NCBI GenBank assembly: GCA_023269085.1 | Contig: JAHFML010000001.1 | Location: 108,578 to 172,577 of the forward strand | Reading direction: 5' to 3' | DNA length: 64,000 nucleotides | DNA from: a bacterium | GTDB taxonomy: Bacteria > Patescibacteriota > Minisyncoccia > Phycocordibacterales > Phycocordibacteraceae | Shown here: positions 20,599 to 64,000 of the stretch, piece by piece | How positions within the stretch are numbered: the stretch's first letter is position 1 | Layout: each line of letters opens with the position of its first letter | Position numbers and translations under genes: made by a program | The notes under the pieces: model-generated | Database searches by the model: none | Seen by the model: only the letters and a program-made list of their open reading frames with translations | Told to the model about the DNA's origin: nothing

Positions 20599-21096
20599 TT
20601 ACCACCCCGATGCTCCGGGCGTATACACCGACCATTCGATATTTGTTCCGTTGGCAACACCCGAGCGTTGCGGATCAATAAGTGAAGAAACGCTATTTGA
20701 ATTCCCCACGCAGTTGTGAAAGAGAAGCTTGTAGTTCGTGCTGTCAGAAGTGTATATATAGCAACAGAAATTATTGGCGTCATCTTCTTTAGAATCTATC
20801 GGCATCGTGCCGAGATAGGTCGGCACCAAACCAGGAATGGTAGGACTAGGCCATCCCGGACAATGGCTCTGCCAACTATTCGAGCCGCCCGTCGATGGAT
20901 ACGCACCATTATTGCTCGACGCATACAAATCGAGAGCTTGTTGAATACTCCGCAGGTTTGAGGCGCGCTGGACGTCGAGAGATTTCCCTCGTGCCACATT
21001 GAGTGAAGCGAGTACGACCGACGAGAGCAAGCCGATGATGGCGATAACAACAAGAAGCTCGACGAGGGTGAAGCCAGAGTGGGGACGCAAGCGCAT
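20599..21096 (-). CDS. type IV pilin/pseudopilin (prepilin-type N-terminal cleavage/methylation domain)
   Basis: Leader MRLRPHSG|FTLVELLVVIAIIGLLSSVVL is the class III signal. The C-terminal region is Cys-containing. Local GC is visibly lower than the flanks. Confidence 0.75.
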   Translation of the reverse strand: MRLRPHSGFTLVELLVVIAIIGLLSSVVLASLNVARGKSLDVQRASNLRSIQQALDLYASSNNGAYPSTGGSNSWQSHCPGWPSPTIPGLVPTYLGTMPIDSKEDDANNFCCYIYTSDSTNYKLLFHNCVGNSNSVSSLIDPQRSGVANGTNIEWSVYTPGASGW

Positions 21097-21115
21097 ACGG
21101 AAAATATACCACGCG

Positions 21116-21283
21116 CTACTTACGCGCGGGCGGATTAGCATTGATAAACGCCCTCTGTTCCTGTGTGAGATGTGAAGATGGCGTAATGAGCACTGGGATG
21201 ACGAATGCGAGTACTACGGCAACTGCCGCGATACCGACAAGTACGATATTCACTCCCCGTTCGGTCGATGCGGCACCCGTCAT
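21116..21283 (-). CDS. hypothetical small membrane protein
   Basis: A single TM segment (IVLVGIAAVAVVLAFVIPVLI) downstream of the pilin. The short ORF has weak support. Confidence 0.25.
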   Translation of the reverse strand: MTGAASTERGVNIVLVGIAAVAVVLAFVIPVLITPSSHLTQEQRAFINANPPARK

Positions 21284-29900: not shown

Positions 29901-31637
29901 GTTCCGCACGATGAGATTTGAGAGGTCTTGAATCATGTTGACCTGCTGTATCGTCGTCATATTGGTCACCGTCTGCGCCGCGACTGGCTGCATCATGCCC
30001 GCAACCGTCGCGAGCACGTCGGTGCGGAGCGAGGCGAGCGACTGCGTCAAGAGATCCGGCGACACGCCCTTTACGATCGTCGTGTAGGTCGGATACGAAT
30101 TGACTACTCGCGCTGATACCGGCGCAGGTGCTAGAGCGAGAATAGTTGGCCGTGGGGTTATGATCGGCGCCGCGGTTTTCGATGTTGTCGTCGCAGAATA
30201 TATCGGGCGATCCGGCGCTATGACCAAGACCGTCGGTGAATGCACAAAAAACGTTGCAAGTGCTCCGCGTGTCGAATCAAAGAAATCGCGAATCGTCGTA
30301 TAGGTGCCGAGTGCGGCGCGCTCGCCAAGCGTGAGCGCCGGCACTGAGGTAATTACCGCCGCAAGACGCGATGCCGAGGGGAACGATTCGAGAACAAGCG
30401 CGGTCTTGCCGAGCAGGCCGAGAGCGGCGTCCTGCACGACAGAGGGGGAACGCGCTATGAGCACCGGTACCGCAACAGCCGCGCGACCGACTGCCGCAGA
30501 AGTCGCGTATGCCGCTCTGCCCGTTTGATCGACCGACGCGAGATACCCCCGCGTTATGGCATCGGTCGCTCTGACGAAATGCATCGCGCCAGAATATTCA
30601 ACATCGAAAACCGCCTCCGCGAGAGAGGGGGCTCCCCTGACGCCGCTCGACACCGTATCCGCGAGAGCATACATGACGCGGACATCGGTTCGTATCGCAG
30701 ATTGAGAAAGCGCGGCGATTGCGCGCGCGACGCCACGACCAGACGCAAATGCGAGATGCGGTACCTGCGCGAGCGCGTCTCGCGTGTCTGCGCCGATTGC
30801 GAGCGCCGTGCCGCCCATAGCATCAATCACCGATTGCCGCGTCGGCAGTGAGCTCGTCATTGCAGCGGCGATCTCTGACGGCGTGGTGACAAACGCGATT
30901 GTGCGAATGAGGCTCGCTCGTATTGCCGCAAACGAGATCGTCGATCGTGCCACAGGCGTCGCCGCGAATGTCTTATGGACCTCTGGTGACTCGGCGCTAT
31001 ATTCTCGAACGAGCGAGGTCTGCATCGACGCGAGCACATTTCCTGCCGAGAGCGCTCGGTACGCCGATGCCTCCGGAGAGGCTGCCATGACGCGAGACGA
31101 GATCTCGCGCATCGCACCGCGTGACGTATCGACGCGCGTCGCGATGCGCGAAGGCACGTCGCCGAAGGTCTCGGTGAAGCCGAGTGCTGTCTCTTGCGCC
31201 AGCGCCGCAACTTGATTGGTAAAACTGGACAACGCCTCTGCGCGCGCGCCGAGAGCGCCCAACGCGACGACGAGCAGAGCTGTGACAAGAGAGACCGTGC
31301 GCGTACCACGCACCGGCGTCCCGATGGCCAAGCGATATGGCGACACCACCATCTGCATCGTCAAGATTGACTCATCGCGCGGCTCTGTATTCTTCTGCAG
31401 CTTACGATATTCATTCGCACGAACATCAGCGAGCTCGCGTGCACGAAGAACCTTCCGATTTTTTTGTTTTTGTAAAAAGGATTCGAGCGCTACCCGATCT
31501 ACCATCCACTGATGCCCGATCTTTTTCCCTTCTATCTCTCCTGCTCGCACGAGTCGCGCGAGATAGTCTTGTGTGTATCCCGACAGCTCTCCAGCCTCTT
31601 TCGTTGTTATGAATTTTTCGTTAGGTGAGGAGTGCAT
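23967..31637 (-). CDS. giant (2,556-aa) membrane-anchored surface protein. N-terminal excisionase-type HTH, single TM, tandem repeats, tail-fibre-like Gly/Asn β-helix repeats, peptidase-S74-like intramolecular chaperone motif, C-terminal Ig-like domain
   Basis: One uninterrupted 7.7-kb ORF. N-term ITTKEAGELSGYTQDYLARLVRAGEIEGKKIGHQWMVDRVALESFL (HTH_17-like) and TM TVSLVTALLVVALGALGA. Repeats of NAFGYGALALNTTGNTNSAFG type. SSEKFKTNIVPLSS…LKPVSFTF (S74-like). C-terminal ~90 aa Ig-like (VVILNGAAAIQLTQGDTFTDPGATALD). Confidence 0.85.
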   Translation of the reverse strand: MHSSPNEKFITTKEAGELSGYTQDYLARLVRAGEIEGKKIGHQWMVDRVALESFLQKQKNRKVLRARELADVRANEYRKLQKNTEPRDESILTMQMVVSPYRLAIGTPVRGTRTVSLVTALLVVALGALGARAEALSSFTNQVAALAQETALGFTETFGDVPSRIATRVDTSRGAMREISSRVMAASPEASAYRALSAGNVLASMQTSLVREYSAESPEVHKTFAATPVARSTISFAAIRASLIRTIAFVTTPSEIAAAMTSSLPTRQSVIDAMGGTALAIGADTRDALAQVPHLAFASGRGVARAIAALSQSAIRTDVRVMYALADTVSSGVRGAPSLAEAVFDVEYSGAMHFVRATDAITRGYLASVDQTGRAAYATSAAVGRAAVAVPVLIARSPSVVQDAALGLLGKTALVLESFPSASRLAAVITSVPALTLGERAALGTYTTIRDFFDSTRGALATFFVHSPTVLVIAPDRPIYSATTTSKTAAPIITPRPTILALAPAPVSARVVNSYPTYTTIVKGVSPDLLTQSLASLRTDVLATVAGMMQPVAAQTVTNMTTIQQVNMIQDLSNLIVRNGDFRGGSLTGGGLVSATTGKFDNLFIGSTDIASYLSSFSNAGQITSGHFVATSSLASVFPYASTTALTVSGSTWLSGLANAPLLGTNANGKLVAVATSSLGITSAVWGNITGVLANQTDLQSALNAKLSLANWYATTTDGLKEGNTNLYYTDARARAALSTSGPLAYNSGAGAFSIAQAGNSSNGFLSSIDWNDFNSRLSTTTLGLFNKDFFFSTTSTNYWLTNKSTTNLAEGANLYYTDARARAALSTSGPLSYNSGTGAFSIASGYIIPLIASTTNWNGSYDTVAANSTNWNSAYAGWNANSANWDTAYASRITLATAPLSFAGNVLSLAQASSTANGYLSSTDWNIFNSKVSSPWATSGADISYIAGNVGIGTAAPAYKLDVAGTARFTNSLALSSITSCTGTQALQTDGSGNVSCGLINTSGASVGGGWASDATKHTVSLATSTYLVAVGATSTLYAKFAVISGSVATTTLALVPSASQTAHIIDIYNTSGALSSVLTADDRLGIGTTTPWATLSVNAPAGRLSFAIGSSTKTSFVVDKNGYVGVGTPMPSSLLTVAANALGVIQTNSSGLAIENMTAASAGAQQISPSLRFTGQGWATTPVASQRTDWQMYALPVQGSANPTSNLIFASGVNGGAYTTRFTLTSGGALSSISSLAMTNTLTNTRTALAAVSTDGIILTNTTAATAGATVQMSPRLRLSGTVWDTGAAASRTVNFKNEVLPVSGNPGTARMLWGYDYNAGGYSELMSLVSTGLLGIGTTTPGSLLSLGNTGANTINISNVATSTFGYGINLKKGCYAINGVCVAANALTAVAVSAPLTGNGTSGSPLTIAQSNGTTDGYLAQADWSHFNTAYTSRIVSATLPLTISANTVAMTQANTSTNGWLSSTDWNTFNTKDSFAWPFTPTAWGVSTSTTIGFTNGIIASASSTIGSLNILANGNVGVGTSPTQKLDVAGYVNTDQYSGFKQAGNTVLYASTTNSSLAIGASSAANWMRATSTLFYDVAIGQGALQTVPTNGLSQFNVAVGFSALGANTSGKINNAFGYGALALNTTGNTNSAFGFNTLRFNTTGNSNSAYGNNALYSNITGNNNSAFGYFALRYNTSATSSVAIGHQAGQGTAAYSNTGGTYVGFQSGYVLATGSNYNTLVGYQSGFSITSGARNTFLGNSTIAASQNQVTTGSNNISIGNDVAVPSATASNQLNIGNMIYGTGLSGTGATVSTGNIGIGLTAPAYKLDVAGYVNTDQYSGFKQAGNTVLYASTTNFSLALGTTGAAGWMRATSTLFYDIAIGQGALGTTPTNGTASTNTAVGVNALNVNRTGNSNTVLGAFTLPVLTTGNSNTALGRSVLNTNITGSFNTAVGSFALRYNTSASSSVAVGYNAGGGTAAYSNQGGTYLGYQAGYSAQTNSNYNTLVGYLSGYSITSGARNTFLGNSVIAASQNQVTTGSNNISIGNDVAVPSATASNQLNIGNMIYGTGLSGTGATVSTGNIGIGTTSPWRKLSVAGSMAIDSPTVSTTGDYLCWNTVTHEIEAGTTCTLSSEKFKTNIVPLSSVSGLDEVLALKPVSFTFIKGYGDNGATTQLGFIAEQAALVDSRLVTRDEQGNPNGFVYANFTSVLTKAIQQLDAKLDVPAGATSTPLAVLTADGRQVDLYKLATYAVANVSLLAGKIDAQGTRLTSLEARVAKLESGAVSVASASPLALGTTSLASALQGFGVLIEKGIAQFNTLVFRQIVASKDADGTSSAGSVSIITGNTVAQVQNSLVLPSTKVFVTFNSQISGSWWVADKTAGSFRVVLSAPQTIDVSFDYFLVQTEGQLATSTPNTLGTSASAPAPVVIAPVASSTPQGGAASGASGVSATSGTASSTPASTGSTGSPQGDTTSPVVILNGAAAIQLTQGDTFTDPGATALDNVDGNLTAKIVETGAVDTAAIGLTTLTYSATDAAGNVGSASRVVTVIAPPSSPVAPTPVDATATPAT
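25420..25672. repeat. intragenic tandem repeat copy A (~255 bp, near-identical to 26218-26470)
   Basis: Direct inspection: strings such as ctcaccgtcgcacctgtcccgctcaaccctgtcccatatatcatgttcccgatattgagttggttgcttgcggtcgcgctcgg occur in both copies. Period is about 798 bp (266 aa). Confidence 0.8.
26218..26470. repeat. intragenic tandem repeat copy B
   Basis: See copy A. Confidence 0.8.
29107..29470. repeat. two tandem ~264-bp (88-aa) repeats within the giant gene (NLYYTDARARAALSTSGPL[AS]YNSG[AT]GAFSIA)
   Basis: gcgatcgagaaggcgcccg…gagcgggccagaggtagagagcgccgcgcgcgcacgagcgtcggtgtagtagaggttcg occurs at about 29107 and about 29371. Confidence 0.7.
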
Positions 31638-32178: not shown

Positions 32179-32976
32179 CTACTTATTGTAGATTGTGATT
32201 CCAAAAAAGTTGCTTACTCGACTGCTCGAGAACAAGTAGTTGTCCATATAGCCGCTGTTAGCAACCGCCAAAACTACAGAGACCATCGCCAGTAGTACGA
32301 AAAGTGTCTTGGTGGCGAGCATGATATGCGTTTGATATGGGCGCTCGTACTGCGGCATCGGCAAATCGGCCTTCTCTTGCTGCGGCAAGCGAGGCGCTGT
32401 TGGTACCGGATCCGCTGAAGGCAAGATCGCCGCGGCGCGCACGGGATTTAGAATGTGGATTGGTATGCTCACCAAAGCACCGGTTTCTGGTTCTGGTTCA
32501 GCAACCGTGTCTGCCGGTGTTGCGGCCTGACTGAACAGATTTTCCCACGAGTCTTGCAGACCGTTGCTCGGCTTCTCTGATACCTGTGGTGTCTTCGCCG
32601 TTTCCTTTATAGGCTCTGTTTCTTTTGTGGTCGTGACTGGTTCTGCAACCGACAGACTGGGCGTTCGCAGGCGATTAAGCGGTGGTAGCGCACTCACCTC
32701 GTCTTCTTCTACCGCTTCATATCGCGGAGCTGATTCATACGCGGCATTTTGAGTGTCCTGCTTAAAACCAATGTTCTCTGTACTGTTATTGACCTCCTCT
32801 CCGAACCTATGATCCTGAATAGCCGACTCGAGAACATACCACGCCCGACCAACGAGTCGTGCCGGGACCCTACCTTCGCGACAAAGCTGCCCTATATAAT
32901 CCTTCGCGTAGCCGGTAATCTTTGCGGCTTGTTTCGACGATATATATTTTTTTTCTTCTATGAGAATCTCATCCAT
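32179..32976 (-). CDS. membrane-anchored protein with an N-terminal excisionase-type HTH (paralogous N-terminus to the giant protein)
   Basis: ISSKQAAKITGYAKDYIGQLCREGRVPARLVGRAWYVLESAI (HTH), an acidic/Pro-rich linker and a C-proximal TM TLFVLLAMVSVVLAVA. Confidence 0.6.
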   Translation of the reverse strand: MDEILIEEKKYISSKQAAKITGYAKDYIGQLCREGRVPARLVGRAWYVLESAIQDHRFGEEVNNSTENIGFKQDTQNAAYESAPRYEAVEEDEVSALPPLNRLRTPSLSVAEPVTTTKETEPIKETAKTPQVSEKPSNGLQDSWENLFSQAATPADTVAEPEPETGALVSIPIHILNPVRAAAILPSADPVPTAPRLPQQEKADLPMPQYERPYQTHIMLATKTLFVLLAMVSVVLAVANSGYMDNYLFSSSRVSNFFGITIYNK

Positions 32977-33035: not shown

Positions 33036-34451
33036 TTAGCCAAGAGTAGCGATGATGAGTTCGCGGAGTAGGGTCGGATTGCCGGCACCTCGCGTAGCTT
33101 GCATGCTCTTGCCGACGAGGTATTGCAAAGCCGCGTCCTTCCCCGATCGGTACTCGATAACCGCCTTGACCTCTTCTTTAAGCACGCTCTCGACCGCAGT
33201 GCGCAAGAGCGTCGCGTCATGCACCTGGATCAACCCGTGCTCCGTGGCGATATTCTCGGGATCTCCCCCCTTCTCGACGAGCAGAGCGAGCGTGTCCTTA
33301 GCCCCGCGCGATGAGAGTTCGCCTGTGTCAATGAGCTTGATGAGCTTCGCAAAAGCCTTCGGGTCAAGAGCCGCATATTCTTCGCACCCCTGTTTGGCAT
33401 ATATACCTGCAAGATCCGATACGATATAGTTCACGGCGATTGAGACAAGACGGCGATCCATACCAAGTTCTTCCGTAAGAGCATCAAAGAATGTCGCGCG
33501 CTCGAGCGTGTCCACTACATAGGCGATATCACTCTCTTTCAAAGCAAAAGCTTCTGTGTACCGCGTTCGACGCTCCCAGGGGAGCTCGGGAAGTGATGCG
33601 CGTATCACCGCATCACTGAAATCAGCAATCTCCGACCGATACATCTTCGGGAGATCTGGTTCAGGGAAGTAGCGATAGTCGGCGCTCCCCTCCTTAAAGC
33701 GTTGGTGAAAGGTTATCTGCTTCGATTCATCCCATCCGCGCGTCTCCTGCACGACCGCCCCGCCGCTCTCAATAAGCGCTGACTGCCTTTCGATCTCGTG
33801 TGCGATAGCGCGCTCGACCGAACGAAACGAGTTCAGGTTTTTGACTTCGACTTTCGTGCCGAGCTTCCCTTCTTCCTTCGAAACCGAGATGTTCGCTTCG
33901 ATGCGCATTTCTCCCTTCTCGAGATTTGCTTCTCCTGCACGAAGGGTACGGAGAAGGAGCTGCAATTCTCGTGCGAATCTCCCTGCCGTCGCCGCATCGT
34001 GAATCACGGGTTCAGTGACCAGCTCCATGAGCGGCACGCCGGAACGATTGAAGTCGACACAACTCCCTTCTTTCGCGTGTGTCGAGCGCGCCGTGTCTTC
34101 TTCGAGATGCACGCGGGTGACCGCAACACCCGCGAGCTCTCCACCCTCTACGAAGGGATGTTCGTATTGACTGATCTGATACCCTTTAGGGATATCAGGA
34201 TAGAAATAGCTCTTGCGATCGAATTCACTGAAATCCGCGAGCTCCCCGCCGAGGGCCGTACCAACCCGCAGGATATGCCGCACTGCTTCTCGATTGATCA
34301 CAGGCAATGTCCCCGGGTGTGCGAGACATACGGGGCAGACATGCGTATTCGGTTTTACTTCGTCAGCGTCATTCGCACAGCGACAGAACATCTTAGTCGC
34401 TGTTTTGAGCTCGGCGTGTATCTCAAGTCCTATGGTCGGGCGGTACTCCAT
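33036..34451 (-). CDS. gatB: Asp-tRNA(Asn)/Glu-tRNA(Gln) amidotransferase subunit B
   Basis: MEYRPTIGLEIHAEL…CRCAND…CPVCL (GatB N-terminal Zn motif) and the C-terminal YqeY-like tail. Confidence 0.9.
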   Translation of the reverse strand: MEYRPTIGLEIHAELKTATKMFCRCANDADEVKPNTHVCPVCLAHPGTLPVINREAVRHILRVGTALGGELADFSEFDRKSYFYPDIPKGYQISQYEHPFVEGGELAGVAVTRVHLEEDTARSTHAKEGSCVDFNRSGVPLMELVTEPVIHDAATAGRFARELQLLLRTLRAGEANLEKGEMRIEANISVSKEEGKLGTKVEVKNLNSFRSVERAIAHEIERQSALIESGGAVVQETRGWDESKQITFHQRFKEGSADYRYFPEPDLPKMYRSEIADFSDAVIRASLPELPWERRTRYTEAFALKESDIAYVVDTLERATFFDALTEELGMDRRLVSIAVNYIVSDLAGIYAKQGCEEYAALDPKAFAKLIKLIDTGELSSRGAKDTLALLVEKGGDPENIATEHGLIQVHDATLLRTAVESVLKEEVKAVIEYRSGKDAALQYLVGKSMQATRGAGNPTLLRELIIATLG

Positions 34452-53019: not shown

Positions 53020-53561
53020 TCGAGCGCCTCTACCTGCGCCACCATCTGGGCATACGCGTCAACGATCGGGTGTTGCCACGACTCGTGTAGCATCGCGAGC
53101 ATCGACTCTTCAAACCATACTTTCTTCTCGCGGCCCGCGTTGAAATAGTTCCAGACGGCATTTCCCTCGCGCGCATGCGCCGCGATGAGACTCTCGGCAT
53201 TCGCTATTTTGTCGGCCGTCGCTATCGCCTTCGCGTCTTCGGGCGCGACACGCACCGCTTCGATATAGGCCCGTTTCTTCTCCTCCCACGGGAGGGTGTC
53301 GTCGTGTGTCACGGGCGCGACGAGATCGGCAACCGCGTCGCCAAGCTCTCGCCGGACATCGTCGAGCGAAACAGGTGTATCTTCCACGACATCATGCACG
53401 AGCCCCGCCGCAATGACCTCGTCTGAGAACCCATACCGTGCGAGCAAGAGAGCGACGCGGACAGGATGGACAATATAGGGCGTCGGCGCCTCCTTGCGCA
53501 TCTGCCCCTCGTGCGCGCGAAGCGCGAGTGCGATTGCCTTTTCGACAAGCGGTCCGTTCAT
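53016..53561 (-). CDS. HD-domain hydrolase, RelA/SpoT-type (small alarmone hydrolase-like)
   Basis: AHEGQMRKEAPTPYIVHPVRVALLL…VHDVVEDT matches the SpoT hydrolase HD signature. Confidence 0.65.
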   Translation of the reverse strand: MNGPLVEKAIALALRAHEGQMRKEAPTPYIVHPVRVALLLARYGFSDEVIAAGLVHDVVEDTPVSLDDVRRELGDAVADLVAPVTHDDTLPWEEKKRAYIEAVRVAPEDAKAIATADKIANAESLIAAHAREGNAVWNYFNAGREKKVWFEESMLAMLHESWQHPIVDAYAQMVAQVEALD

Positions 53562-55717
53562 ACGCAGACTTTATCAAACACCTTCTTCTGCATCTGCACG
53601 GCGATCTTGTCCCAGTCGTAGTCGCGTTCGACCATCGCGCGGGCGCGCTCTGATATTTCGTGCGCCTTCTCGGGGTTCGCAATGACTTCTTGTATCTTCT
53701 CGGCGAGCGCCTTCGGATCATCTGGCGACACGAGCCACGCGGTCTCACCGTTTACCGCGTAGTCGGCGATGCCGCCCACGCCCGAGGTGACAAGCGGGAG
53801 CCTCGAAGCGAGTGCCGAGATGAAAGCGTTCCCGAGCCCTTCAGAGCGAGACGGCGCGACGAAGATATCACTCGCCTTCCGGTAGAGCGTGACCACCGAG
53901 CGATCGACGCGGCCGGTGAAGATGACCCGATCTCGCACGCCGAGCTTCTTTGCCAGATCTTTCAATTTCGCTTCATCTTCGCCATCGCCGACCGCAACGA
54001 ATTTTATAGTGTCGGGCAGATGCGTGAGCGCTTCGATAACGGTATCAAACCCTTTCTGATGCACGAGCCGCGAGGTGTTCACGAGATATATCTCACTCTC
54101 CTTTTTCCCGAGCTCTTTCTTCATCTCATCAATCTCGACTTGCGAGAATGCTTGCTTCAAGTCGTTCGGGTTCGCACCATTCTTGACGAGGACGATCTCG
54201 CCCGCGTAGCCCATCTCGTGTGCCCACTGGCTCAAATAATTCGAGATGCTCTGCACCATCGTCGCGCTCGTGAACGCTCGCTTGAAGAGCGGCCAGACTG
54301 GGCGCATCACCTTCTCGACATGCTCTTTGGGGTCTCCCTCTTGGAGCGTGAGCACATATGGCGTCCTTGGCGAGAAGATCTTGAAGAGGGCCGCGGGGAT
54401 GCCGGCCGAATGCGCCATCATCGCCCAGATACCGTCATAGTGATACCGCGCATTGAGCGAGAGACCCTTCAAGGCACCGAAGATTTGGAAGAGATACTTA
54501 TTCGATTTCAAAATAAACTTCTTGCCGTAGTCCTCAAAGCGCGGGTCGGGGAGCCCGAAGCCGATGCGATGCACGAGGATGTTCCCATAGCGCTCGGTGC
54601 GCGGGAGATTCGAATTCCAGAGACAGGTGACCATGTGGAACTCGATATCCTCGGGCGCGATGCGGTCCGTAATCTCTTTGATCGCCGGCTCGGCACCGCC
54701 GTGGAAGTTGGGATAGTAGACGAGCGAGAAGATAAGGACGCGCTTCTTCGGCCGAAGGGTCGCGAAATCGGTAGCATTGGTCTTCATAGGCGTTTCGTTA
54801 TGTTTAATATCCGCGACATACTCGGGAAGCGTGTGCTTCTGCTCCCAGCCAAGCGCTCTTATCTTAGTGCTGTCAACTGCTTCGACCGAGCGGGTCGACT
54901 TCGTCGGTGACGAATACTCGAGATGACCGCCGAACATCCGCGCAACATCAAGAAGGCTGTATGCCTCAGCGGCACAAATGCCATACTCGTCCCCTTCTCC
55001 TCTTTCTCCTGCAAGCACGATGCCATCTACGGTATCCATGACATGTGTGAACGGCCGCTTCTGATTCCCAGCCCCCGCGAGACGATGCGGCAATCCGTGA
55101 AGCCAGTTCTGGTGGAGAATTTCTATAACCGTTCCATATTGATCACCGCGCTCGCGCGGGCCATACACATTATAGAAATAAGTAATGGCGTAGGGCAATT
55201 CGAACCATCGCGCATACTGCACAACCAGATCGCTCATCGACGATTTCGCCCAAGTGTAGGGCGCGAGATCCTTCCCTGCAACACCGTCTTCGATACGATA
55301 GGCAAACTTCGTCGACGAACCGGCATAGATGAGCTTGCATCGTTTCTCTCGCCAATATTCTAAAACTCCCAAGGTGCCGTCTATATTCAAATCGAATGTT
55401 ACCGCTGGCTCTGCAAGCGAGTGCCGAACCCGCGAATATTCGCCCAAGTGATAAATGAGGTCGGGGGTCTCGGGGATGTGGCGCTCAATATCTTTGGTGT
55501 GGCCTTCGCGGTAGTCGACATCCCTATGCGTCTTACAGACGCCGGGCGAGCATTCTGCTGTGCAGAATGCTCTAGCCGGGACATGATTCTCGCGACTACC
55601 GGTGAAGTAGTTGTCGAGCGAGATGACGCGGTGACCGTCCTTGACCAGCCGCTCGCAGAGATGCCCTCCGATGAAGCCGGCGCCACCGGTCACGAGAATG
55701 AGTTTTGAATCAGCCAT
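53558..55717 (-). CDS. fusion protein: NAD-dependent sugar-nucleotide epimerase/dehydratase (SDR) N-domain plus GT4 glycosyltransferase C-domain
   Basis: LVTGGAGFIGGHLCERL (Rossmann), YxxxK-type region, then KRVLIFSLVYYPNFHGGAEPAIKE…SRSEGLGNAFISALASRLPLVTS (GT4). Confidence 0.8.
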   Translation of the reverse strand: MADSKLILVTGGAGFIGGHLCERLVKDGHRVISLDNYFTGSRENHVPARAFCTAECSPGVCKTHRDVDYREGHTKDIERHIPETPDLIYHLGEYSRVRHSLAEPAVTFDLNIDGTLGVLEYWREKRCKLIYAGSSTKFAYRIEDGVAGKDLAPYTWAKSSMSDLVVQYARWFELPYAITYFYNVYGPRERGDQYGTVIEILHQNWLHGLPHRLAGAGNQKRPFTHVMDTVDGIVLAGERGEGDEYGICAAEAYSLLDVARMFGGHLEYSSPTKSTRSVEAVDSTKIRALGWEQKHTLPEYVADIKHNETPMKTNATDFATLRPKKRVLIFSLVYYPNFHGGAEPAIKEITDRIAPEDIEFHMVTCLWNSNLPRTERYGNILVHRIGFGLPDPRFEDYGKKFILKSNKYLFQIFGALKGLSLNARYHYDGIWAMMAHSAGIPAALFKIFSPRTPYVLTLQEGDPKEHVEKVMRPVWPLFKRAFTSATMVQSISNYLSQWAHEMGYAGEIVLVKNGANPNDLKQAFSQVEIDEMKKELGKKESEIYLVNTSRLVHQKGFDTVIEALTHLPDTIKFVAVGDGEDEAKLKDLAKKLGVRDRVIFTGRVDRSVVTLYRKASDIFVAPSRSEGLGNAFISALASRLPLVTSGVGGIADYAVNGETAWLVSPDDPKALAEKIQEVIANPEKAHEISERARAMVERDYDWDKIAVQMQKKVFDKVCV

Positions 55718-55732
55718 GTAGGAGAAGCATAC

Positions 55733-56854
55733 CTAAAGCAATATGAATGCGCCACCCGCGAGCGCGATGATGCCGAAGAGGCTGTAGGTCCACGGCGAAT
55801 GCAAGAGGCCGGCGGAAGGCTTCGCGGGCGTATAGGCGGGCGAAGAAGAGGCCGATGCCGCCCCCGCGGCGGCGAGGGTACTCGCCGCCGCGGGGGCGTT
55901 TACTGCTTCATCATGTGCTTGAGCGGGTACTGAAATGTTGATAAGCGGGTCGACCTCCTGCACTTGAAGAGAACTCGGTGCGACGGCCGAAGGTTGCACG
56001 TTCGGCATATAGCGCGCCGCCACGACGCCGTCCGGGTAGGCAAGGCTCGCGTCAAACGCAATCGGCAGATTGCTAATCGTGAACGGGAAGAGGACGCTCG
56101 CGTGCGGCAAGAGGCTCATGCCGAGCGGGATACTGAAGATGCCGGTGCCCGACATGAGGCGCCAGCCAGAGAGATCGAGCCGCTCGTCAGAATCGTTCGC
56201 GAGCGTGATGCCCTCGGTCGAGATGCTTGCAATGCGTACGACAGCCGGCTCCACCGTCACAGTCATCTCGCCACGCGCCGTCGTCGGGCCGTCGGTCGCT
56301 GTCGCGATGACGAGATAGGCGCCAGCATAGCGATACGTCTTCTGCGCGCGCGTTCCCTCCCCTGCCGAGCCGTCGCCGAAGCTCCATACGATGCGTGCCG
56401 CCAGATCGGACGCTCCACTCCGTGCCTTCACACTTGCCGTGAAAGTAAATGGCACGTCGATGAATGCCGTCCTACTCGCACCAAGATCAACAGTGAGGAC
56501 GGGCGGCGGCGGGACATACGAGGGTGATCCGCCTGAGGATGTTGAAGTTGCTTCGACTATTGTTGTTGTCACGATCTGGTTCGAATCACTCACTGTGATG
56601 TAGGGTGCGATTTTTGCATAAGTAACTGGCCCGATACCACTCACGTTTTGAATATCAGAAATCTTTGCGAAGGGACCGTGTTGCGTACGGTACGCAACGA
56701 TGTTCCCTGCATACGTCGGACCAATGTTGGGAAGTGTATCGAGAAGAGTCGCGTCAGCCGTATTAATATTCACGAGCGCCGCGTGCGCGAGAACAGGGAT
56801 GATGAAAATGAGAACGGCGAGGATTATGCCGCTCTGCTTCATAAAATAGTTCAT
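55733..56854 (-). CDS. ComEA-like helix-hairpin-helix DNA-binding protein with PKD and lamin-tail (LTD) domains and a C-terminal TM anchor
   Basis: VNINTADATLLDTLPNIGPTYAGNIVAYRTQHGPFAKISDIQNVSGIGPVTYAKI (ComEA HhH), WSFGDGSAGEG…TYRYAGAYLVIATATD (PKD), LSGWRL (LTD), C-terminal LFGIIALAGGAFILL. Confidence 0.7.
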   Translation of the reverse strand: MNYFMKQSGIILAVLIFIIPVLAHAALVNINTADATLLDTLPNIGPTYAGNIVAYRTQHGPFAKISDIQNVSGIGPVTYAKIAPYITVSDSNQIVTTTIVEATSTSSGGSPSYVPPPPVLTVDLGASRTAFIDVPFTFTASVKARSGASDLAARIVWSFGDGSAGEGTRAQKTYRYAGAYLVIATATDGPTTARGEMTVTVEPAVVRIASISTEGITLANDSDERLDLSGWRLMSGTGIFSIPLGMSLLPHASVLFPFTISNLPIAFDASLAYPDGVVAARYMPNVQPSAVAPSSLQVQEVDPLINISVPAQAHDEAVNAPAAASTLAAAGAASASSSPAYTPAKPSAGLLHSPWTYSLFGIIALAGGAFILL

Positions 56855-56861
56855 GGAGAAA

Positions 56862-58637
56862 TTATGCGTCCCCGCGCAGGACCTTGCGCAGATCGGCTTC
56901 GGGTATCTCAAAAGGTTTCTTCTCGACGGGCGGGGAGCTCTCCCGCGGCGGCAGAGCCGCCGCGGGCTTTAGTTCTCGCGATGGTTCGTTCTTCTCGAGC
57001 ACGCTCGCGAGCGCACCTTTGAGCGACTGCTGATTCTTCGTCTTCGTCTCTTCGCGCTCGACACTCGTCTTCGCTACCATCGTGCGCAAGACTGACTTTA
57101 GATCGTCCGGGCTCTTGGTGGGCGGTGTTGGCTGCACGGGCATGCGTACTGGTTCTGGTGGTCTACTCATCGGTGCTATCGGCGTGCGCACCGGCTCGCG
57201 AGCAGGCTCCGGGCGCGGCCGCGGCGGCCGCGCCTCGCGCACCGGCGCGGTCGGCGCGGGCGTCCCCCCTCGCGCCTCGCGTGCCTCCTTCGCATACTGC
57301 GCGCCGGTCTTCTTCATCCGCGCATCAGCAGGCGCGGGCGCCACGGCACTCGCCATGAGCTCGTCGGTGATAGCCTTCTCGACACCGGCGCGCGGCACCG
57401 CGAAGGTCGCACGCGACAGCTCGATAACATCCGCGCGATGCGACACGGGCGGCCGCTCGATGGGCGGTATCGTCACCGCCGAGAAGGGCGCGCTCCCGAC
57501 GCTGTCGATCATGAGCGTGAGATAGATCTGCGCGAAGCCGAGCGAGACGATATCCTCCTTCACAAACTTCGGCATGAAGATAGGCTCGAGCACCTCCGCG
57601 TCGAAAGGGCCAACCCGGAAGGTTACGGTCGTGCCGACGTTCCCGAAGACCGCGTCGCGCACCTCCTCCTCCATCTGCTCGATGTACTGGTGCGTGATGA
57701 CGAGATTCAATTTATACTTGCGCGACTCCGAGAGTATCTCGGCGAAGGTCTCGTTCGCGAAGTTCTGGAATTCGTCGACATAGAAATAGAAGTGCGGAAG
57801 CTTCGCCAGCTCAGCATGCGAGCGGTCGGCGCGGCTCATCGCCGCGAGGAAGATGCGCGTCGTGAGCATCGAGCCGATGAGCCGCATGTTCGTCTCACCG
57901 ACGAGCCCCTTCGAGAGATTGATGAGGAGGATCTTCTGGCCGTCCATCATCTCGCGAATATCAAACGACGACTTCGGTTGCCCGATGATATTGCGGATAA
58001 GCGGGTTGCCGGTAAATTGGCCGATCTTATTCTGAATAGCCGGTGTCGCCTCTTGCGTATACCGATCGCCGTAGTTAGCAAACTCTTTGAGCCAGAAATC
58101 TTTGACCACCGGATCCTTCACATTGTCGACGACCTTGGTTCGATACTCCTTGTCGGTATACATGCGGTTGACCCCCAGCAGAGTCGCGTCCGGATATTCG
58201 AGCAAGGCGAGGAGCGTATTGGTGAGGATATACTCCATACGCGCGCTCCACGCGTCCTGCCAGATCTTCTTGAAGGTCGCCATGAGGCCGCTGACGACGA
58301 GATGTCGCTTGTCGTAACCGACATCCTCCATCACATTGAAGGCGATCGGGTGCTCCATGTCGAAGGGCGCGAAGTAGACGACATCCTTCATCCGCTCCTC
58401 GGGGATGAAGTCGAGAAGCTTCTCGATAGTGCCGCCGTGCGGGTCGAGGAAGGCGAGCCCCTCGCCATTCCGTATGTCCTGAATAGCCATGTTCTCGAGC
58501 AGGGTCGATTTGCCCATACCGGTCTTGCCGATGACATACATGTGGCGATCGCGATCCTTCGATTTGATGCCGAAGGGGACATTCTTCCCTCGGGCATCAG
58601 TCGCGGCGAAGTAGGTAACGCGCTCGGGGTTCTCCAT
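56862..58637 (-). CDS. soluble DUF87/HerA-VirD4-like P-loop ATPase with a Pro-rich C-terminal tail
   Basis: HMYVIGKTGMGKSTLLENM (Walker A), …FLDPHGG…, YFYVDEFQNFA (Walker B). No TM helices. C-terminal ~180 aa is Pro/Arg/Glu-rich low complexity. Confidence 0.6.
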   Translation of the reverse strand: MENPERVTYFAATDARGKNVPFGIKSKDRDRHMYVIGKTGMGKSTLLENMAIQDIRNGEGLAFLDPHGGTIEKLLDFIPEERMKDVVYFAPFDMEHPIAFNVMEDVGYDKRHLVVSGLMATFKKIWQDAWSARMEYILTNTLLALLEYPDATLLGVNRMYTDKEYRTKVVDNVKDPVVKDFWLKEFANYGDRYTQEATPAIQNKIGQFTGNPLIRNIIGQPKSSFDIREMMDGQKILLINLSKGLVGETNMRLIGSMLTTRIFLAAMSRADRSHAELAKLPHFYFYVDEFQNFANETFAEILSESRKYKLNLVITHQYIEQMEEEVRDAVFGNVGTTVTFRVGPFDAEVLEPIFMPKFVKEDIVSLGFAQIYLTLMIDSVGSAPFSAVTIPPIERPPVSHRADVIELSRATFAVPRAGVEKAITDELMASAVAPAPADARMKKTGAQYAKEAREARGGTPAPTAPVREARPPRPRPEPAREPVRTPIAPMSRPPEPVRMPVQPTPPTKSPDDLKSVLRTMVAKTSVEREETKTKNQQSLKGALASVLEKNEPSRELKPAAALPPRESSPPVEKKPFEIPEADLRKVLRGDA

Positions 58638-58698
58638 GATGCCACTAGTATAGCAAATTCCCGCGGCGCTTCGCGCCGCGGGATTGCATTACTCCCCG

Positions 58699-58920
58699 CT
58701 ATCCTATCGCCTGATGCGGCTCCTCGCTCAACACTGCGCTCGGCGCCTCCTTCGTCGCATCTGCGACTTTTACTTCGCGCGCGCGGAGTGAGACCCCGAC
58801 ACTAACGACGATCGCGCCGAAGACGACTGCGAGCAGTGAGCGCATCGCGACCGGCAAGCCCGAATAGGGCGTGATGATAGTGAGGATTCCGACGAGGATA
58901 AGTATGCCAGTGCGGGACAT
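58699..58920 (-). CDS. hypothetical small membrane protein
   Basis: Two hydrophobic helices (ILILVGILTIITPY; LLAVVFGAIVVSVGV). Confidence 0.3.
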   Translation of the reverse strand: MSRTGILILVGILTIITPYSGLPVAMRSLLAVVFGAIVVSVGVSLRAREVKVADATKEAPSAVLSEEPHQAIG

Positions 58921-63617: not shown

Positions 63618-64000
63618 AATTGGATATGTTCCACGAGCAGCTTCCGCTACCCGTGCCTTGTTACGACTTAGTCCTTGTCACTGAATTTACCGTAGTCCTG
63701 CGCAAGGCAGACCTTCGGGTACCCCCAGCTCCCTTGACTTGACGGGCGGTGAGTACAAGACTCGAGAACGTATTCACCCCAGTTTGGCTGACCTGGGATT
63801 ACTAGCGATTCCGGCTTCATGAGGTCGATTGCAGACCTCAATCCGTACTGGGGGTGGTTTTGAGGGATTGGCTCCACCTTACGGTATTGCAACCCGTTGT
63901 ACCACCCATTGTATTATGTGTGCAGCCCAAGGTATCAAGGGACATGCTGATCTGGCGTCATCCTCACCTTCCTCTCCCGTGAGGGAGCAGTCTCGCCTGG
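63618..64000 (-). rRNA. 16S rRNA, 3' portion (about 380 nt); the gene continues beyond the window end
   Basis: The reverse complement contains universal 16S blocks: …TTGTACTCACCGCCCGTCA… (1390s region) and AAGTCGTAACAAGG, then an h45-like hairpin CACGGGUAGC-GGAA-GCUGCUCGUG. The 3' boundary is approximate. Confidence 0.9.

What the first reader, a model, noticed from the sequence alone, without database searches (positions are those of the whole stretch)
55733..58637. ComEA-like HhH/PKD/lamin-tail surface protein in an operon with a soluble DUF87/VirD4-like ATPase: a candidate DNA uptake or transfer module
Gene 56862..58637 encodes a 591-aa cytoplasmic P-loop ATPase. Its Walker A HMYVIGKTGMGKST, the FLDPHGG motif and Walker B YFYVDEFQ are signatures of the HerA/DUF87 and TraG/VirD4 coupling-protein clades that pump DNA. 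It has no TM helix and ends in a ~180-aa Pro/Arg-rich tail.

Seven bp downstream, gene 55733..56854 encodes an exported, membrane-anchored protein with a canonical ComEA double helix-hairpin-helix DNA-binding module (LPNIGPTYAGNIVAYR…VSGIGPVTYAKI). This module is followed by PKD and lamin-tail domains.

If the organism is the nucleotide-auxotrophic type it appears to be, DNA uptake would matter to it. A ComEA-like receptor paired with a soluble translocase-type ATPase, rather than a recognisable ComEC/ComFA, would be an undescribed arrangement. A type IV pilin is present at 20599..21096.
Basis: partly seen in the sequence, partly recalled or inferred. Interest (0 to 1): 0.7.

Follow-up and report, generated by a model that had tools for sequence, protein, structure and literature searches.

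The report
Orphan coupling ATPase beside DNA-binding surface protein
Two real genes in a Patescibacteria genome, a membrane-anchor-less conjugation-type ATPase and a surface protein with a ComEA-type DNA-binding tip, sit side by side, but related genomes keep the ATPase and swap or drop the tip, so they are probably neighbours rather than a DNA-uptake machine.

Summary
Both genes exist as described. The 591-aa protein is a VirD4/TrwB-type coupling ATPase (T4CP): Pfam hits pass cut-off, and a confident model (pLDDT 92.7) best matches TrwB. It has no TM helix and a Pro/Ala/Arg-rich tail. The 373-aa protein has a cleavable signal peptide, a ComEA-type double helix-hairpin-helix (HhH) head, a PKD domain, a weak lamin-tail domain (LTD) and a C-terminal anchor.

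The "module" reading does not hold up.
- In 80 species-level loci the ATPase is as conserved as MurC or better (median 71% vs 68%).
- The downstream gene's head is HhH in 31, LTD in 13, Ig-like in 9 and remnant in 2. The gene is absent in 22.
- These states are interspersed on the ATPase tree (≥27 changes).
- Relatives at 44–45% identity keep MurC–RsmI–ATPase–glycosyltransferase synteny without it.
- The surface protein has almost no cytoplasmic residues for the ATPase to contact.
- A 7-bp gap is normal here (median 10.5 bp).

Orphan T4CP homologues are already reported in 2,918 of 3,035 Patescibacteria genomes, and T4CPs lacking a transmembrane domain are a known subclass.

New details are the DUF8128-less Paceibacteria short form, a conserved leaderless-type promoter, and head-swapping of the surface protein. 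Interest is modest.

The parts
56862..58637 (-). TMD-less VirD4/TrwB-type coupling-protein (T4CP) family ATPase, 591 aa. The core (nucleotide-binding domain, NBD, plus all-alpha domain) is aa 1-~433 (57339..58637).
   Evidence: Pfam TrwB_AAD_bind, T4SS-DNA_transf and TraG-D_C pass cut-off. Profile search against the PDB is best for TrwB (3e-7) and DotL (2.6e-6). AF2 model has pLDDT 92.7. Foldseek top hit is TrwB at E 5e-14, TM 0.61-0.65. No TM segment.
58503..58544 (-). Walker A region HMYVIGKTGMGKST (aa 32-45).
   Evidence: Sequence. G37, G40, G42 and K43 are invariant across 36 relatives at 44-72% identity.
57765..57788 (-). Walker B region YFYVDEFQ (aa 284-291).
   Evidence: Sequence. D288 is invariant, and E289 and F290 are nearly invariant.
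56865..57407 (-). Pro/Ala/Arg-rich C-terminal tail (aa 411-591). It carries conserved short motifs (KSPxDLKxxLRTM, SLKGALAxVL, EKKPFExPExxLRKVL) that are candidate partner-docking sites.
   Evidence: Composition. Motif conservation in 31 relatives. The tail is missing or different in more distant relatives.
58647..58655 (-). Extended -10-like element TGCTATACT, ending 9 nt before the ATPase ATG. It implies a leaderless or near-leaderless transcript that starts at the ATPase gene.
   Evidence: A TATACT-like hexamer ends 6-10 nt before the start codon in 74 of 79 loci; 76 of 79 have one within 40 nt, against a 4% background for any 40-mer.
58659..58683 (-). GC-rich 11-bp stem-loop followed by a T-run. 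It is a likely terminator of the upstream small ORF and abuts the ATPase promoter.
   Evidence: Terminator scan. Fold of -41.5 kcal/mol; a stem of at least 8 bp lies upstream of the ATPase in 59 of 76 relatives.
55733..56854 (-). Secreted, C-terminally anchored surface protein with the order signal peptide - (HhH)2 - PKD - LTD-like - Ala/Ser-rich linker - TM.
   Evidence: Pfam, NCBIfam, PDB ComEA match, hydropathy.
56780..56854 (-). Signal peptide (aa 1-25, ...VLAHA|A).
   Evidence: Hydropathy peak at aa 3-33 and an AXA site. Homologous signal peptides occur in all three head variants.
56591..56779 (-). ComEA-type double helix-hairpin-helix head (aa 26-88). It is the variable 'head' position of the protein.
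   Evidence: HHH_3 at 76.3 bits. ComEA 8dss at E 1.4e-12. Sister species carry an LTD or a FlgD_ig-like domain at this position.
56255..56485 (-). PKD domain (aa 124-200), part of the constant stalk.
   Evidence: PKD_4 at 34.7 bits and PKD at 29.3 bits. It is present in all head variants.
56090..56233 (-). Weak lamin-tail-domain match (aa 208-255), part of the constant stalk.
   Evidence: LTD at 18.7 bits, below the 34.3 cut-off. PF00932 is precomputed for some homologues.
55736..55792 (-). C-terminal hydrophobic anchor (aa 355-373, ...SPWTYSLFGIIALAGGAFILL). No residues follow it.
   Evidence: Hydropathy. The motif is conserved in the HhH, LTD and Ig variants.
58699..58920 (-). Small 73-aa ORF with two hydrophobic helices, upstream of the ATPase. 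It is a possible but unproven membrane partner, by analogy with TraI/TraJ of pIP501.
   Evidence: Hydropathy. Present in 60 of 80 loci. It stays with the ATPase in some rearranged loci (L011, L035, L056, L061) and with RsmI in others (L036, L038, L047, L057, L062). A terminator-like hairpin separates it from the ATPase.

Best explanation
These are two adjacent, probably co-transcribed, but functionally separable genes.

(1) The ATPase. It is the Paceibacteria short form of the near-universal 'orphan' VirD4/TrwB-type coupling ATPase (T4CP) of Patescibacteria.
- Shown: it has the T4CP fold, a nucleotide-binding domain (NBD) with an all-alpha domain inserted between Walker A and Walker B.
- Shown: its catalytic motifs are intact.
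- Shown: it lacks both the transmembrane domain (TMD) and the DUF8128 domain that relatives in other Patescibacteria classes carry.
- Shown: it is vertically inherited in a housekeeping block (MurD-MurC-RsmI-small ORF-ATPase-glycosyltransferases), has its own conserved promoter, and is at least as conserved as MurC.
- Inferred: it forms a hexameric NTP-driven motor and substrate receptor.
- Inferred: it docks on a membrane partner through the conserved motifs in its Pro-rich tail, or through a small membrane protein. The most plausible partner is the chromosomal monoderm-type T4SS that most Patescibacteria encode elsewhere. There it would hand over or pump a substrate.
- Unknown: whether the substrate is DNA or protein, and in which direction it moves.

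(2) The downstream gene. It is a lineage-restricted, fast-evolving surface protein on a constant PKD-LTD stalk with a C-terminal anchor.
- Shown: its distal head is exchangeable, and in this genome the head is a ComEA-type (HhH)2 module.
- Inferred: the head binds extracellular double-stranded DNA at the cell surface. It could serve as a receptor for competence or as an eDNA or host-surface adhesin.

The adjacency reflects insertion of this surface-protein gene between the ATPase and a cell-envelope glycosylation cluster in one sub-lineage of a very compact genome. It is not a dedicated two-gene machine.
For: Identity of the ATPase
- Pfam.
- PDB profile hits to TrwB and DotL.
- Confident AF2 model with TrwB as best structural match, ahead of HerA and VirB4.

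Housekeeping character
- Median identity over 80 species loci is 71% for the ATPase, against MurC 68%, RsmI 62% and MurD 59%.
- There are more than 8000 close homologues and 5582 clusters at 50% identity with E<=1e-30.
- Synteny with MurC-RsmI and glycosyltransferases persists at 44-45% identity.
- No integrase, relaxase or VirB4 lies in the window.
- A conserved -10 element lies 6-10 nt before the start codon in 74 of 79 loci.

Long forms elsewhere
- Relatives with a TM helix and DUF8128 occur in other classes.
- No separate DUF8128 gene is found in the window or the 80 loci.

Separability of the two genes
- Head states in the window plus 80 loci are HhH 31, LTD 13, Ig-like 9, remnant 2, none 22 and unknown 4, with at least 27 parsimony changes on the ATPase tree.
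- The ComEA-like family is small (390 hits) and only 43-60% identical where the ATPase is 70-87%.
- The surface protein has no cytoplasmic segment.
- The 7-bp gap is ordinary, since the window median is 10.5 bp.

Literature
- T4CP homologues occur in 2,918 of 3,035 Patescibacteria genomes, only 148 of them near virB4, and the gene is non-essential in S. epibionticum (PMC12102498).
- TMD-less T4CPs that work with small membrane proteins are a recognised subclass (PMC7434980).
Against: - The two genes are tightly packed, with no terminator or separate promoter between them. They are therefore very likely co-expressed here, as they are in about 40% of sister species.
- Both the HhH and the LTD heads could be DNA-binding, so head swapping need not abolish an eDNA role.
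- The proposed partner of the ATPase (a T4SS) was not seen in the 64-kb window and could not be searched genome-wide.
- T4CP homologues are more widespread than VirB4 (2,918 vs 2,417 of 3,035 genomes) and dispensable where the T4SS is essential. This weakens the 'serves the T4SS' step.
- The NJ tree used for the parsimony count is poorly resolved among close relatives, so 27 changes is a rough figure.
Confidence: 0.62

Rival explanations
1. First reader's model. The surface ComEA-like protein captures extracellular DNA, and the soluble T4CP-type ATPase is the cytoplasmic motor that pulls it in (or pushes it out). Together they form a non-canonical DNA uptake or transfer module that substitutes for ComFA/ComEC-type components.
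For: - Both domain assignments are correct.
- The genes are 7 bp apart in one transcription unit that starts at the ATPase promoter.
- T4CPs are DNA-dependent translocase-like ATPases, and a divergent relative lies next to a Replic_Relax protein in a mobile element.
- The alternative LTD head is also found in nucleases and ComEC-type proteins (general knowledge, not tested here).
- ComEC is dispensable for growth in a cultured Saccharibacterium, so another nucleotide or DNA route is being sought (PMC11665869).
Against: - The HhH head is present in only 31 of 77 assessable loci. It is replaced or absent in close relatives while the ATPase stays 62-80% identical.
- It is absent next to the 44-45% identical chromosomal relatives, the long forms and the IMG/VR relatives.
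- No membrane channel gene lies in the locus, and the surface protein has almost no cytoplasmic residues (6 at most before signal-peptide cleavage).
- The intergenic spacing is uninformative.
Confidence: 0.12
2. The ATPase is a remnant or active part of an integrated conjugative or mobilisable element, and the surface protein is that element's adhesin.
For: - The wider family includes copies in mobile contexts: integrase + HTH_17 + ATPase + Replic_Relax (L084), and an integrase-rich region with a second 998-aa T4CP (L088).
- PHROG 5156 matches at E 1e-52.
- 26 relatives lie on IMG/VR contigs.
Against: - The window locus has no integrase, relaxase, VirB4 or repeats, and it sits among MurD, MurC, RsmI and glycosyltransferase genes close to an rRNA operon.
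- Synteny is conserved across 80 species and down to 44% identity.
- Conservation exceeds that of MurC.
- GC content is unremarkable.
Confidence: 0.04
3. The ATPase is a T4SS-independent housekeeping DNA translocase of the FtsK/HerA superfamily. It would act, for example, in chromosome segregation or resolution at division, or in DNA end processing. This would explain its linkage to mur/dcw genes.
For: - It lies next to MurD/MurC in Paceibacteria, and near MurG-FtsW-MraY-PBP in a long-form locus (L081).
- It is highly conserved.
- T4CP homologues occur in more genomes than VirB4.
- HerA is the second-best structural match.
Against: - The fold and profiles favour T4CP over HerA (TM 0.61-0.65 against 0.52) and FtsK.
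- There is no NurA or Mre11/Rad50 neighbour.
- FtsK is mentioned for Saccharibacterium TM7x in papers retrieved, which I did not read in detail.
- Linkage to mur genes could be inherited synteny.
Confidence: 0.15

Closest known systems
TrwB (R388) / VirD4-type type IV coupling proteins (also Cagbeta, DotL/IcmO)
   Same: - Walker A and B nucleotide-binding domain with an all-alpha domain inserted between them.
- Best sequence-profile and structural match: TrwB at E 3e-7 by profile, and Foldseek E 5e-14 with TM 0.61-0.65 over about 440 columns.
- Pfam TrwB_AAD_bind, T4SS-DNA_transf and TraG-D_C pass cut-off.
   Different: - No N-terminal transmembrane domain.
- Only about 14-15% identity to TrwB.
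- No relaxase or VirB4 nearby.
- Chromosomal, vertically inherited and as conserved as MurC.
- Pro/Arg-rich tail with its own conserved motifs.
TMD-less T4CPs of monoderm conjugation systems (TraJ of pIP501, recruited by the small membrane protein TraI)
   Same: - A soluble coupling ATPase without a TMD, which is a recognised T4CP subclass (PMC7434980).
- A small two-helix membrane ORF lies directly upstream here.
- The Patescibacteria T4SS is of the monoderm MPF-FATA type (PMC12102498).
   Different: - The locus is not on a plasmid or in a tra operon.
- The small ORF is separated from the ATPase by a terminator-like hairpin, and in many relatives it stays with RsmI rather than with the ATPase.
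- No interaction has been tested.
Orphan VirD4-type T4CP homologues of Patescibacteria (Quinonero-Coronel et al. 2025, PMC12102498)
   Same: This gene is one of them. They report 5,713 homologues in 2,918 of 3,035 genomes, only 148 near virB4, with function open and described as possibly 'exapted'.
   Different: The paper does not, in the passages I read, describe three things found here.
- The split between long forms (TM + DUF8128) and the Paceibacteria short form.
- The MurC-RsmI-ATPase-glycosyltransferase synteny.
- The conserved leaderless-type promoter.
These are seen.
ComEA (Bacillus/Geobacillus ComE operon protein 1; Thermus ComEA-related protein)
   Same: A C-terminal-type (HhH)2 dsDNA-binding domain. 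HHH_3 scores 76 bits, and 8dss matches at E 1.4e-12 over aa 28-88.
   Different: - The domain order is reversed and extended: signal peptide, then HhH at the mature N-terminus, then a PKD + LTD stalk and a C-terminal anchor.
- It scores below the NCBIfam ComEA cut-offs.
- It is not in a comE operon, and no ComEC is in the window.
- The head is exchangeable for an LTD or an Ig-like domain in sister species.
Helicobacter pylori ComB (T4SS-based DNA uptake)
   Same: It is the precedent that T4SS-family machinery can import DNA. It is cited as the model for a possible nucleotide-acquisition role of the Patescibacteria T4SS (PMC11665869).
   Different: No VirB-type channel components are in this locus. 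Nothing here shows direction or substrate.

Membership tests
Type IV coupling protein (VirD4/TrwB family) | P-loop NBD of the FtsK/HerA/VirD4 superfamily with intact Walker A and B motifs. | tested here: met
   GKTGMGKST at aa 37-45 and YVDEFQ at aa 286-291. G37, G40, G42, K43 and D288 are invariant in 36 diverse relatives. Pfam T4SS-DNA_transf scores 30.1 against a cut-off of 20.1.
Type IV coupling protein (VirD4/TrwB family) | All-alpha domain inserted between Walker A and Walker B. | tested here: met
   TrwB_AAD_bind scores 39.7 bits against 20.5 and covers aa 26-342. The AF2 model (pLDDT 92.7) has eight helices at aa 108-232 between the motifs. Full-length Foldseek alignment to TrwB gives TM 0.61-0.65.
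Type IV coupling protein (VirD4/TrwB family) | N-terminal transmembrane domain. | tested here: not met
   The maximum 19-residue hydropathy is 1.49, so there is no TM segment. Relatives in other classes do have a TM helix plus DUF8128. TMD-less T4CPs are a recognised subclass (PMC7434980).
Type IV coupling protein (VirD4/TrwB family) | Genetic association with a relaxase and/or a VirB4-based T4SS. | tested here: not met
   None was found among the window's large ORFs or the flanking genes. The rest of the genome could not be searched. In published Patescibacteria data only 148 of 5,713 homologues are near virB4.
Type IV coupling protein (VirD4/TrwB family) | Hexameric, DNA-stimulated NTPase that couples a substrate to a secretion channel. 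| not testable with these tools
   This needs biochemistry or genetics.
NCBIfam equivalogs (conju_CD1115, TraD, CedD) | Score above the curated cut-off. | tested here: not met
   The best is conju_CD1115 at 53.5 bits against 250. TraD and CedD match only the P-loop region.
HerA/DUF87 helicase | HerA-type architecture and a NurA partner. | tested here: not met
   The DUF87 hit is marginal (23.7 vs 23.2) and confined to aa 17-68. HerA scores E 0.72 in the PDB profile search and TM 0.52 against 0.61-0.65 for TrwB. No NurA-like neighbour is present.
ComEA | (HhH)2 DNA-binding domain (PF12836). | tested here: met
   HHH_3 scores 76.3 bits against 27. ComEA 8dss matches at E 1.4e-12.
ComEA | Full-length or domain equivalog score (TIGR01259, TIGR00426). 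| tested here: not met
   63.5 against 152.35, and 49.3 against 53.1.
ComEA | ComEA architecture (N-terminal anchor or signal, then a C-terminal HhH) and comE/comEC context. | tested here: not met
   The HhH follows the signal peptide directly and is followed by a PKD/LTD stalk and a C-terminal TM. No ComEC is in the window.
ComEA | Binds dsDNA and is needed for transformation. | not testable with these tools
   This needs EMSA and genetics.
Proposed 'ComEA-like + T4CP' module | Conserved co-occurrence of the two genes beyond inherited synteny. | tested here: not met
   The HhH head is present in 31 of 77 assessable loci, counting the window itself, with at least 27 state changes. It is absent in the 44-45% identical syntenic relatives and in all 35 further loci.

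The most novel reading that the evidence does not exclude
The near-universal, highly conserved orphan T4CP of Patescibacteria would be a core cytoplasmic motor for importing host or environmental DNA or nucleoprotein. That is the sought-after ComEC-independent route to nucleotides. In the Kaiserbacteria-like lineage, its operon would have recruited a cell-surface DNA receptor with exchangeable DNA-binding heads (HhH or LTD) that feeds the same pathway.
Probability: 0.1. Interest if true: 0.75.

Novelty: new member of a known kind. Interest (0 to 1): 0.3.

Why it matters
How Patescibacteria obtain nucleotides is an open question. ComEC is dispensable for growth in the one genetically tractable species, and the T4SS has been suggested as the alternative route (PMC11665869, PMC12857230). 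A T4CP-type ATPase physically and functionally tied to an extracellular DNA receptor would have been a concrete lead.

The comparative evidence here says the tie is incidental. This saves effort and redirects attention to the ATPase itself. It is present in about 96% of Patescibacteria genomes, is more conserved than MurC in this lineage, has lost its membrane anchor and DUF8128 domain in Paceibacteria, and has a conserved promoter and tail motifs. Those features make it a good target for interaction screens.

The head-swapping surface protein is a tidy example of modular surface diversification in ultrasmall bacteria.

Tried and rejected
1. AF2 on a shallow alignment of close homologues gave pLDDT 49. 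I discarded that model and used the one built from a more diverse alignment.
2. Is the missing DUF8128/TM module encoded as a separate gene? tblastn with 20 N-terminal extensions found nothing in the window or the 80 loci.
3. Is the small 2-TM ORF a split-off T4CP membrane domain? A hairpin terminator separates it from the ATPase. In many rearranged loci it stays with RsmI, in others with the ATPase. I keep this only as a low-probability idea.
4. Defence-system reading. PADLOC gives only weak generic hits: mad8 at 5e-11 and HerA at 5e-6. The housekeeping synteny argues against it.
5. FtsK-replacement idea. Only suggestive mur/dcw linkage supports it, and FtsK is mentioned for TM7x in retrieved papers. 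I kept it as a rival explanation.
6. Literature search for DUF8128 returned no papers.
7. Supplementary material of PMC12102498. The PDF holds figure legends only. I did not mine the spreadsheet.
8. Searching the whole genome for comEC, pilB/T or virB4 was not possible.

Full report
**Observation**

Both ORFs are real and lie at the stated coordinates.
- The ATPase is 56862..58637(-), 591 aa.
- The surface protein is 55733..56854(-), 373 aa from its ATG. A longer TTG-initiated ORF is unlikely, because homologues start with short signal peptides.
- The two genes are 7 bp apart.

The window comes from a Patescibacteria genome of the Kaiserbacteria/Paceibacteria type. GC content is about 57%, a 16S rRNA gene 3' end lies at 63619..64000, and the homologues' names agree.

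**What the ATPase is**

It belongs to the VirD4/TrwB coupling-protein (T4CP) family.
- Pfam places it above cut-off in TrwB_AAD_bind (aa 26-342), T4SS-DNA_transf and TraG-D_C. DUF87 is only marginal.
- No NCBIfam equivalog is reached. The best is the CD1115 VirD4-like family, at 53.5 bits against a cut-off of 250.
- A profile of 36 relatives at 44-72% identity finds TrwB (E 3e-7) and DotL/IcmO (2.6e-6) as the only convincing solved relatives. HerA scores E 0.72.
- A first AF2 run on a shallow alignment failed, with pLDDT 49. A second run on the diverse alignment gave pLDDT 92.7 and pTM 0.91.
- That model shows a P-loop core with an all-helical insertion (aa 108-232) between Walker A and Walker B.
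- Foldseek ranks TrwB first (E 5e-14, TM 0.61-0.65 over about 440 columns). Next come HerA (TM 0.52), Cagbeta, DotL and VirB4.
- The protein has no TM segment. Its last 181 residues are Pro/Ala/Arg-rich and carry three short motifs conserved among close relatives.

The T4CP assignment stands, apart from the missing transmembrane domain (TMD). T4CPs without a TMD are a recognised subclass, for example TraJ of pIP501 working with the small membrane protein TraI (PMC7434980).

**How the ATPase family is distributed**

The family is very large.
- More than 8000 close homologues exist at 70-87% identity, named 'type IV secretion system DNA-binding domain-containing protein'.
- There are 21,260 clusters at 50% identity with E<=1e-3, and 5,582 with E<=1e-30.

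Many relatives at 45-53% identity are 'long forms'. These carry an N-terminal TM helix (or two) and a domain of about 350 aa, PF26449/DUF8128. They are found in Saccharimonadia, Microgenomatia, Berkelbacteria, WWE3 and others. The window protein and its Paceibacteria relatives lack this module, and no separate DUF8128 gene is nearby.

Divergent members sit in mobile contexts.
- A tandem double-ATPase form lies between an integrase/HTH_17 pair and a Replic_Relax gene (L084).
- Another lies in an integrase-rich region beside a 998-aa T4CP (L088).
- PHROG 5156 matches at E 1e-52.
- 26 relatives lie on IMG/VR contigs.

The family therefore includes mobile-element-borne DNA-transfer ATPases. The copy in this window is not one of them.

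**Context of the window's copy**

In 80 species-representative genomes the order MurD-MurC-(orf)-RsmI-small ORF-ATPase-...-epimerase/glycosyltransferase recurs.

Median identity to the window protein is:

| Protein | Median identity |
|---|---|
| ATPase | 71% |
| MurC | 68% |
| RsmI | 62% |
| MurD | 59% |

The same order persists at 44-45% ATPase identity (L086 and L087).

Upstream of the ATPase start codon, 76 of 79 loci have a TATACT-like -10 hexamer within 40 nt, and in 74 it ends 6-10 nt before the ATG. The background is 4% for any 40-mer. The hexamer is usually preceded by a GC-rich hairpin and a T-run. In the window this is TGCTATACT at 58647..58655, after the hairpin at 58659..58683. 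This indicates a terminator for the small upstream ORF, followed by a promoter that gives a leaderless or near-leaderless ATPase transcript.

The window's other large ORFs are housekeeping genes: GyrB, PheT, GatB, Obg, SecA, pentose-phosphate and glycolysis enzymes, and many glycosyltransferases. No ComEC, PilB/T, ComFA or VirB4 is among them.

**What the downstream gene is**

Its parts, in order, are:
- a signal peptide ending AHA|A;
- a ComEA-type (HhH)2 domain (HHH_3 76 bits; ComEA 8dss at E 1.4e-12);
- a PKD domain;
- a weak lamin-tail-domain (LTD) match;
- an Ala/Ser/Pro-rich linker;
- a terminal hydrophobic helix with nothing after it.

It scores below the NCBIfam ComEA cut-offs, and its domain order is unlike canonical ComEA. 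The family is small (390 hits) and only 43-60% identical where the ATPase is 70-87%. Public annotation already calls these proteins 'helix-hairpin-helix domain-containing protein' or 'ComEA'.

**Test of the module hypothesis**

I classified the gene immediately downstream of the ATPase in the window plus the 80 loci, using iterative HMM searches and Pfam.

| State downstream of the ATPase | Loci |
|---|---|
| HhH head | 31 |
| N-terminal LTD head (Pfam E 1e-13 to 1e-21) | 13 |
| FlgD_ig-like head | 9 |
| Stalk remnant only | 2 |
| No such gene | 22 |
| Too little sequence to tell | 4 |

The signal peptide, the PKD-LTD stalk and the C-terminal anchor motif (SPW..(F/L)G..ALAG.AFI(L/F)L) are homologous across all three head types. 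This is therefore one gene with an exchangeable head.

On an NJ tree of the ATPase cores the states are interspersed, and Fitch parsimony needs at least 27 changes. That figure is rough, because close relatives are poorly resolved. The more divergent half of the tree mostly lacks the gene.

None of 35 further loci (long forms, distant short forms, IMG/VR contigs) has a detectable homologue of this protein within the 6-8 kb of flank held (Pfam gene tables).

Two further points weaken the physical-coupling idea.
- The surface protein has at most 6 cytoplasmic residues before signal-peptide cleavage, and none at its C-terminus. The proposed contact between the ATPase tail and a 'cytoplasmic N-terminus' therefore has no substrate.
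- The 7-bp gap is not special. The median same-strand gap in the window is 10.5 bp, and 59% of gaps are <=20 bp.

**Literature**

Quinonero-Coronel et al. 2025 (PMC12102498) studied 3,035 Patescibacteria genomes.
- VirB4 is present in 2,417 of them.
- VirD4-type T4CP homologues number 5,713, in 2,918 genomes, and only 148 lie near virB4.
- The t4cp gene is non-essential in S. epibionticum although the T4SS is essential.
- The authors note that it may have been exapted for another function.

Meheust et al. 2019 (PMC6744442) found ComEC in 86% of CPR genomes but KEGG ComEA in only 31%. Reviews state that ComEC is dispensable for growth and propose the T4SS as a possible alternative nucleotide route (PMC11665869 and PMC12857230). 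So both the orphan T4CP and the HhH protein are already known kinds.

**Most likely mechanism**

Shown:
- a T4CP-fold ATPase with intact catalytic motifs;
- soluble, chromosomal, vertically inherited and highly constrained;
- transcribed from its own promoter, with the surface-protein gene downstream in the same unit.

Inferred:
- it forms a hexameric motor and substrate receptor;
- it is recruited to the membrane by its tail motifs or by a small membrane protein;
- it serves a channel encoded elsewhere, most plausibly the monoderm-type T4SS. I put that sub-step at roughly 40%, because T4CP homologues are more widespread than VirB4 and are dispensable where the T4SS is essential.

The surface protein most likely displays a dsDNA-binding head on a stalk, for capture of extracellular DNA or for adhesion. 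In sister species other heads replace it.

**Verdict**

The domain-level interpretation is right. The 'undescribed DNA-uptake module' is not supported. Both genes are new members of known kinds. Three modestly new details emerged: the DUF8128-less short form, the conserved leaderless-type promoter, and head swapping of the surface protein.

Noticed in passing
window 58638..58683 (-), and the same position in L001-L080: A GC-rich hairpin plus T-run runs straight into a TGnTATACT-like -10 element. The element ends 6-10 nt before the ATPase start codon in 74 of 79 loci. This looks like a terminator-promoter junction that yields a leaderless mRNA.
   Followed up: partly
window 53558..55717 (-): A 719-aa fusion of an NAD-dependent epimerase/dehydratase with a GT4 glycosyltransferase. 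In most related loci these are two separate adjacent genes (for example L021 8103-8987 and 8984-10156). They are fused in a few loci (L036, L046, L050, L052).
   Followed up: no
window 23967..31637 (-) and 32179..32976 (-): A giant 2556-aa ORF has an N-terminal HTH_17 hit, a Peptidase_S74 (endosialidase chaperone) domain and a C-terminal bacterial surface Ig-like domain. It lies next to a 265-aa protein that also starts with HTH_17. This is an odd combination for a surface-type giant protein.
   Followed up: no
window 34067..34158 (-): ARAGORN calls a 92-nt tRNA-Arg(gcg) inside the GatB coding region (33036..34451). Rfam does not confirm it, so it is probably a false positive.
   Followed up: partly
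window 20599..21141 (-): A lone type IV pilin-like gene (N_methyl motif) is embedded among transketolase, ribulose-phosphate epimerase, RpiB and GAPDH genes. No pilus assembly genes lie nearby.
   Followed up: partly
L086 1-1313 (-); L088 7497-10493 (+): Genomes carrying the chromosomal short-form ATPase also carry a second T4CP-like gene in a mobile-element-like setting (Bro-N, HTH and methyltransferase genes, or integrases). This fits the published average of about two T4CP homologues per Patescibacteria genome.
   Followed up: partly
L084 8001-12444: A 1227-aa protein has a faint DUF8128 match and two tandem T4CP ATPase domains. It is followed by a Replic_Relax gene and preceded by an integrase and an HTH_17 gene. 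The contig also encodes an Omp85-like protein, so this is a mobile element in a probable diderm.
   Followed up: no
L086 6785-7984; L087 4629-5870: In the more divergent syntenic relatives a DUF4015 gene (about 400 aa) sits between the small ORF and the ATPase. It is absent from the window.
   Followed up: no
window 56942..56966: A perfect 11-bp GC palindrome (CCCGCGGCGGC aga GCCGCCGCGGG) lies inside the 3' end of the ATPase coding region, in the Pro/Ala-rich tail. It is probably a by-product of codon composition.
   Followed up: no
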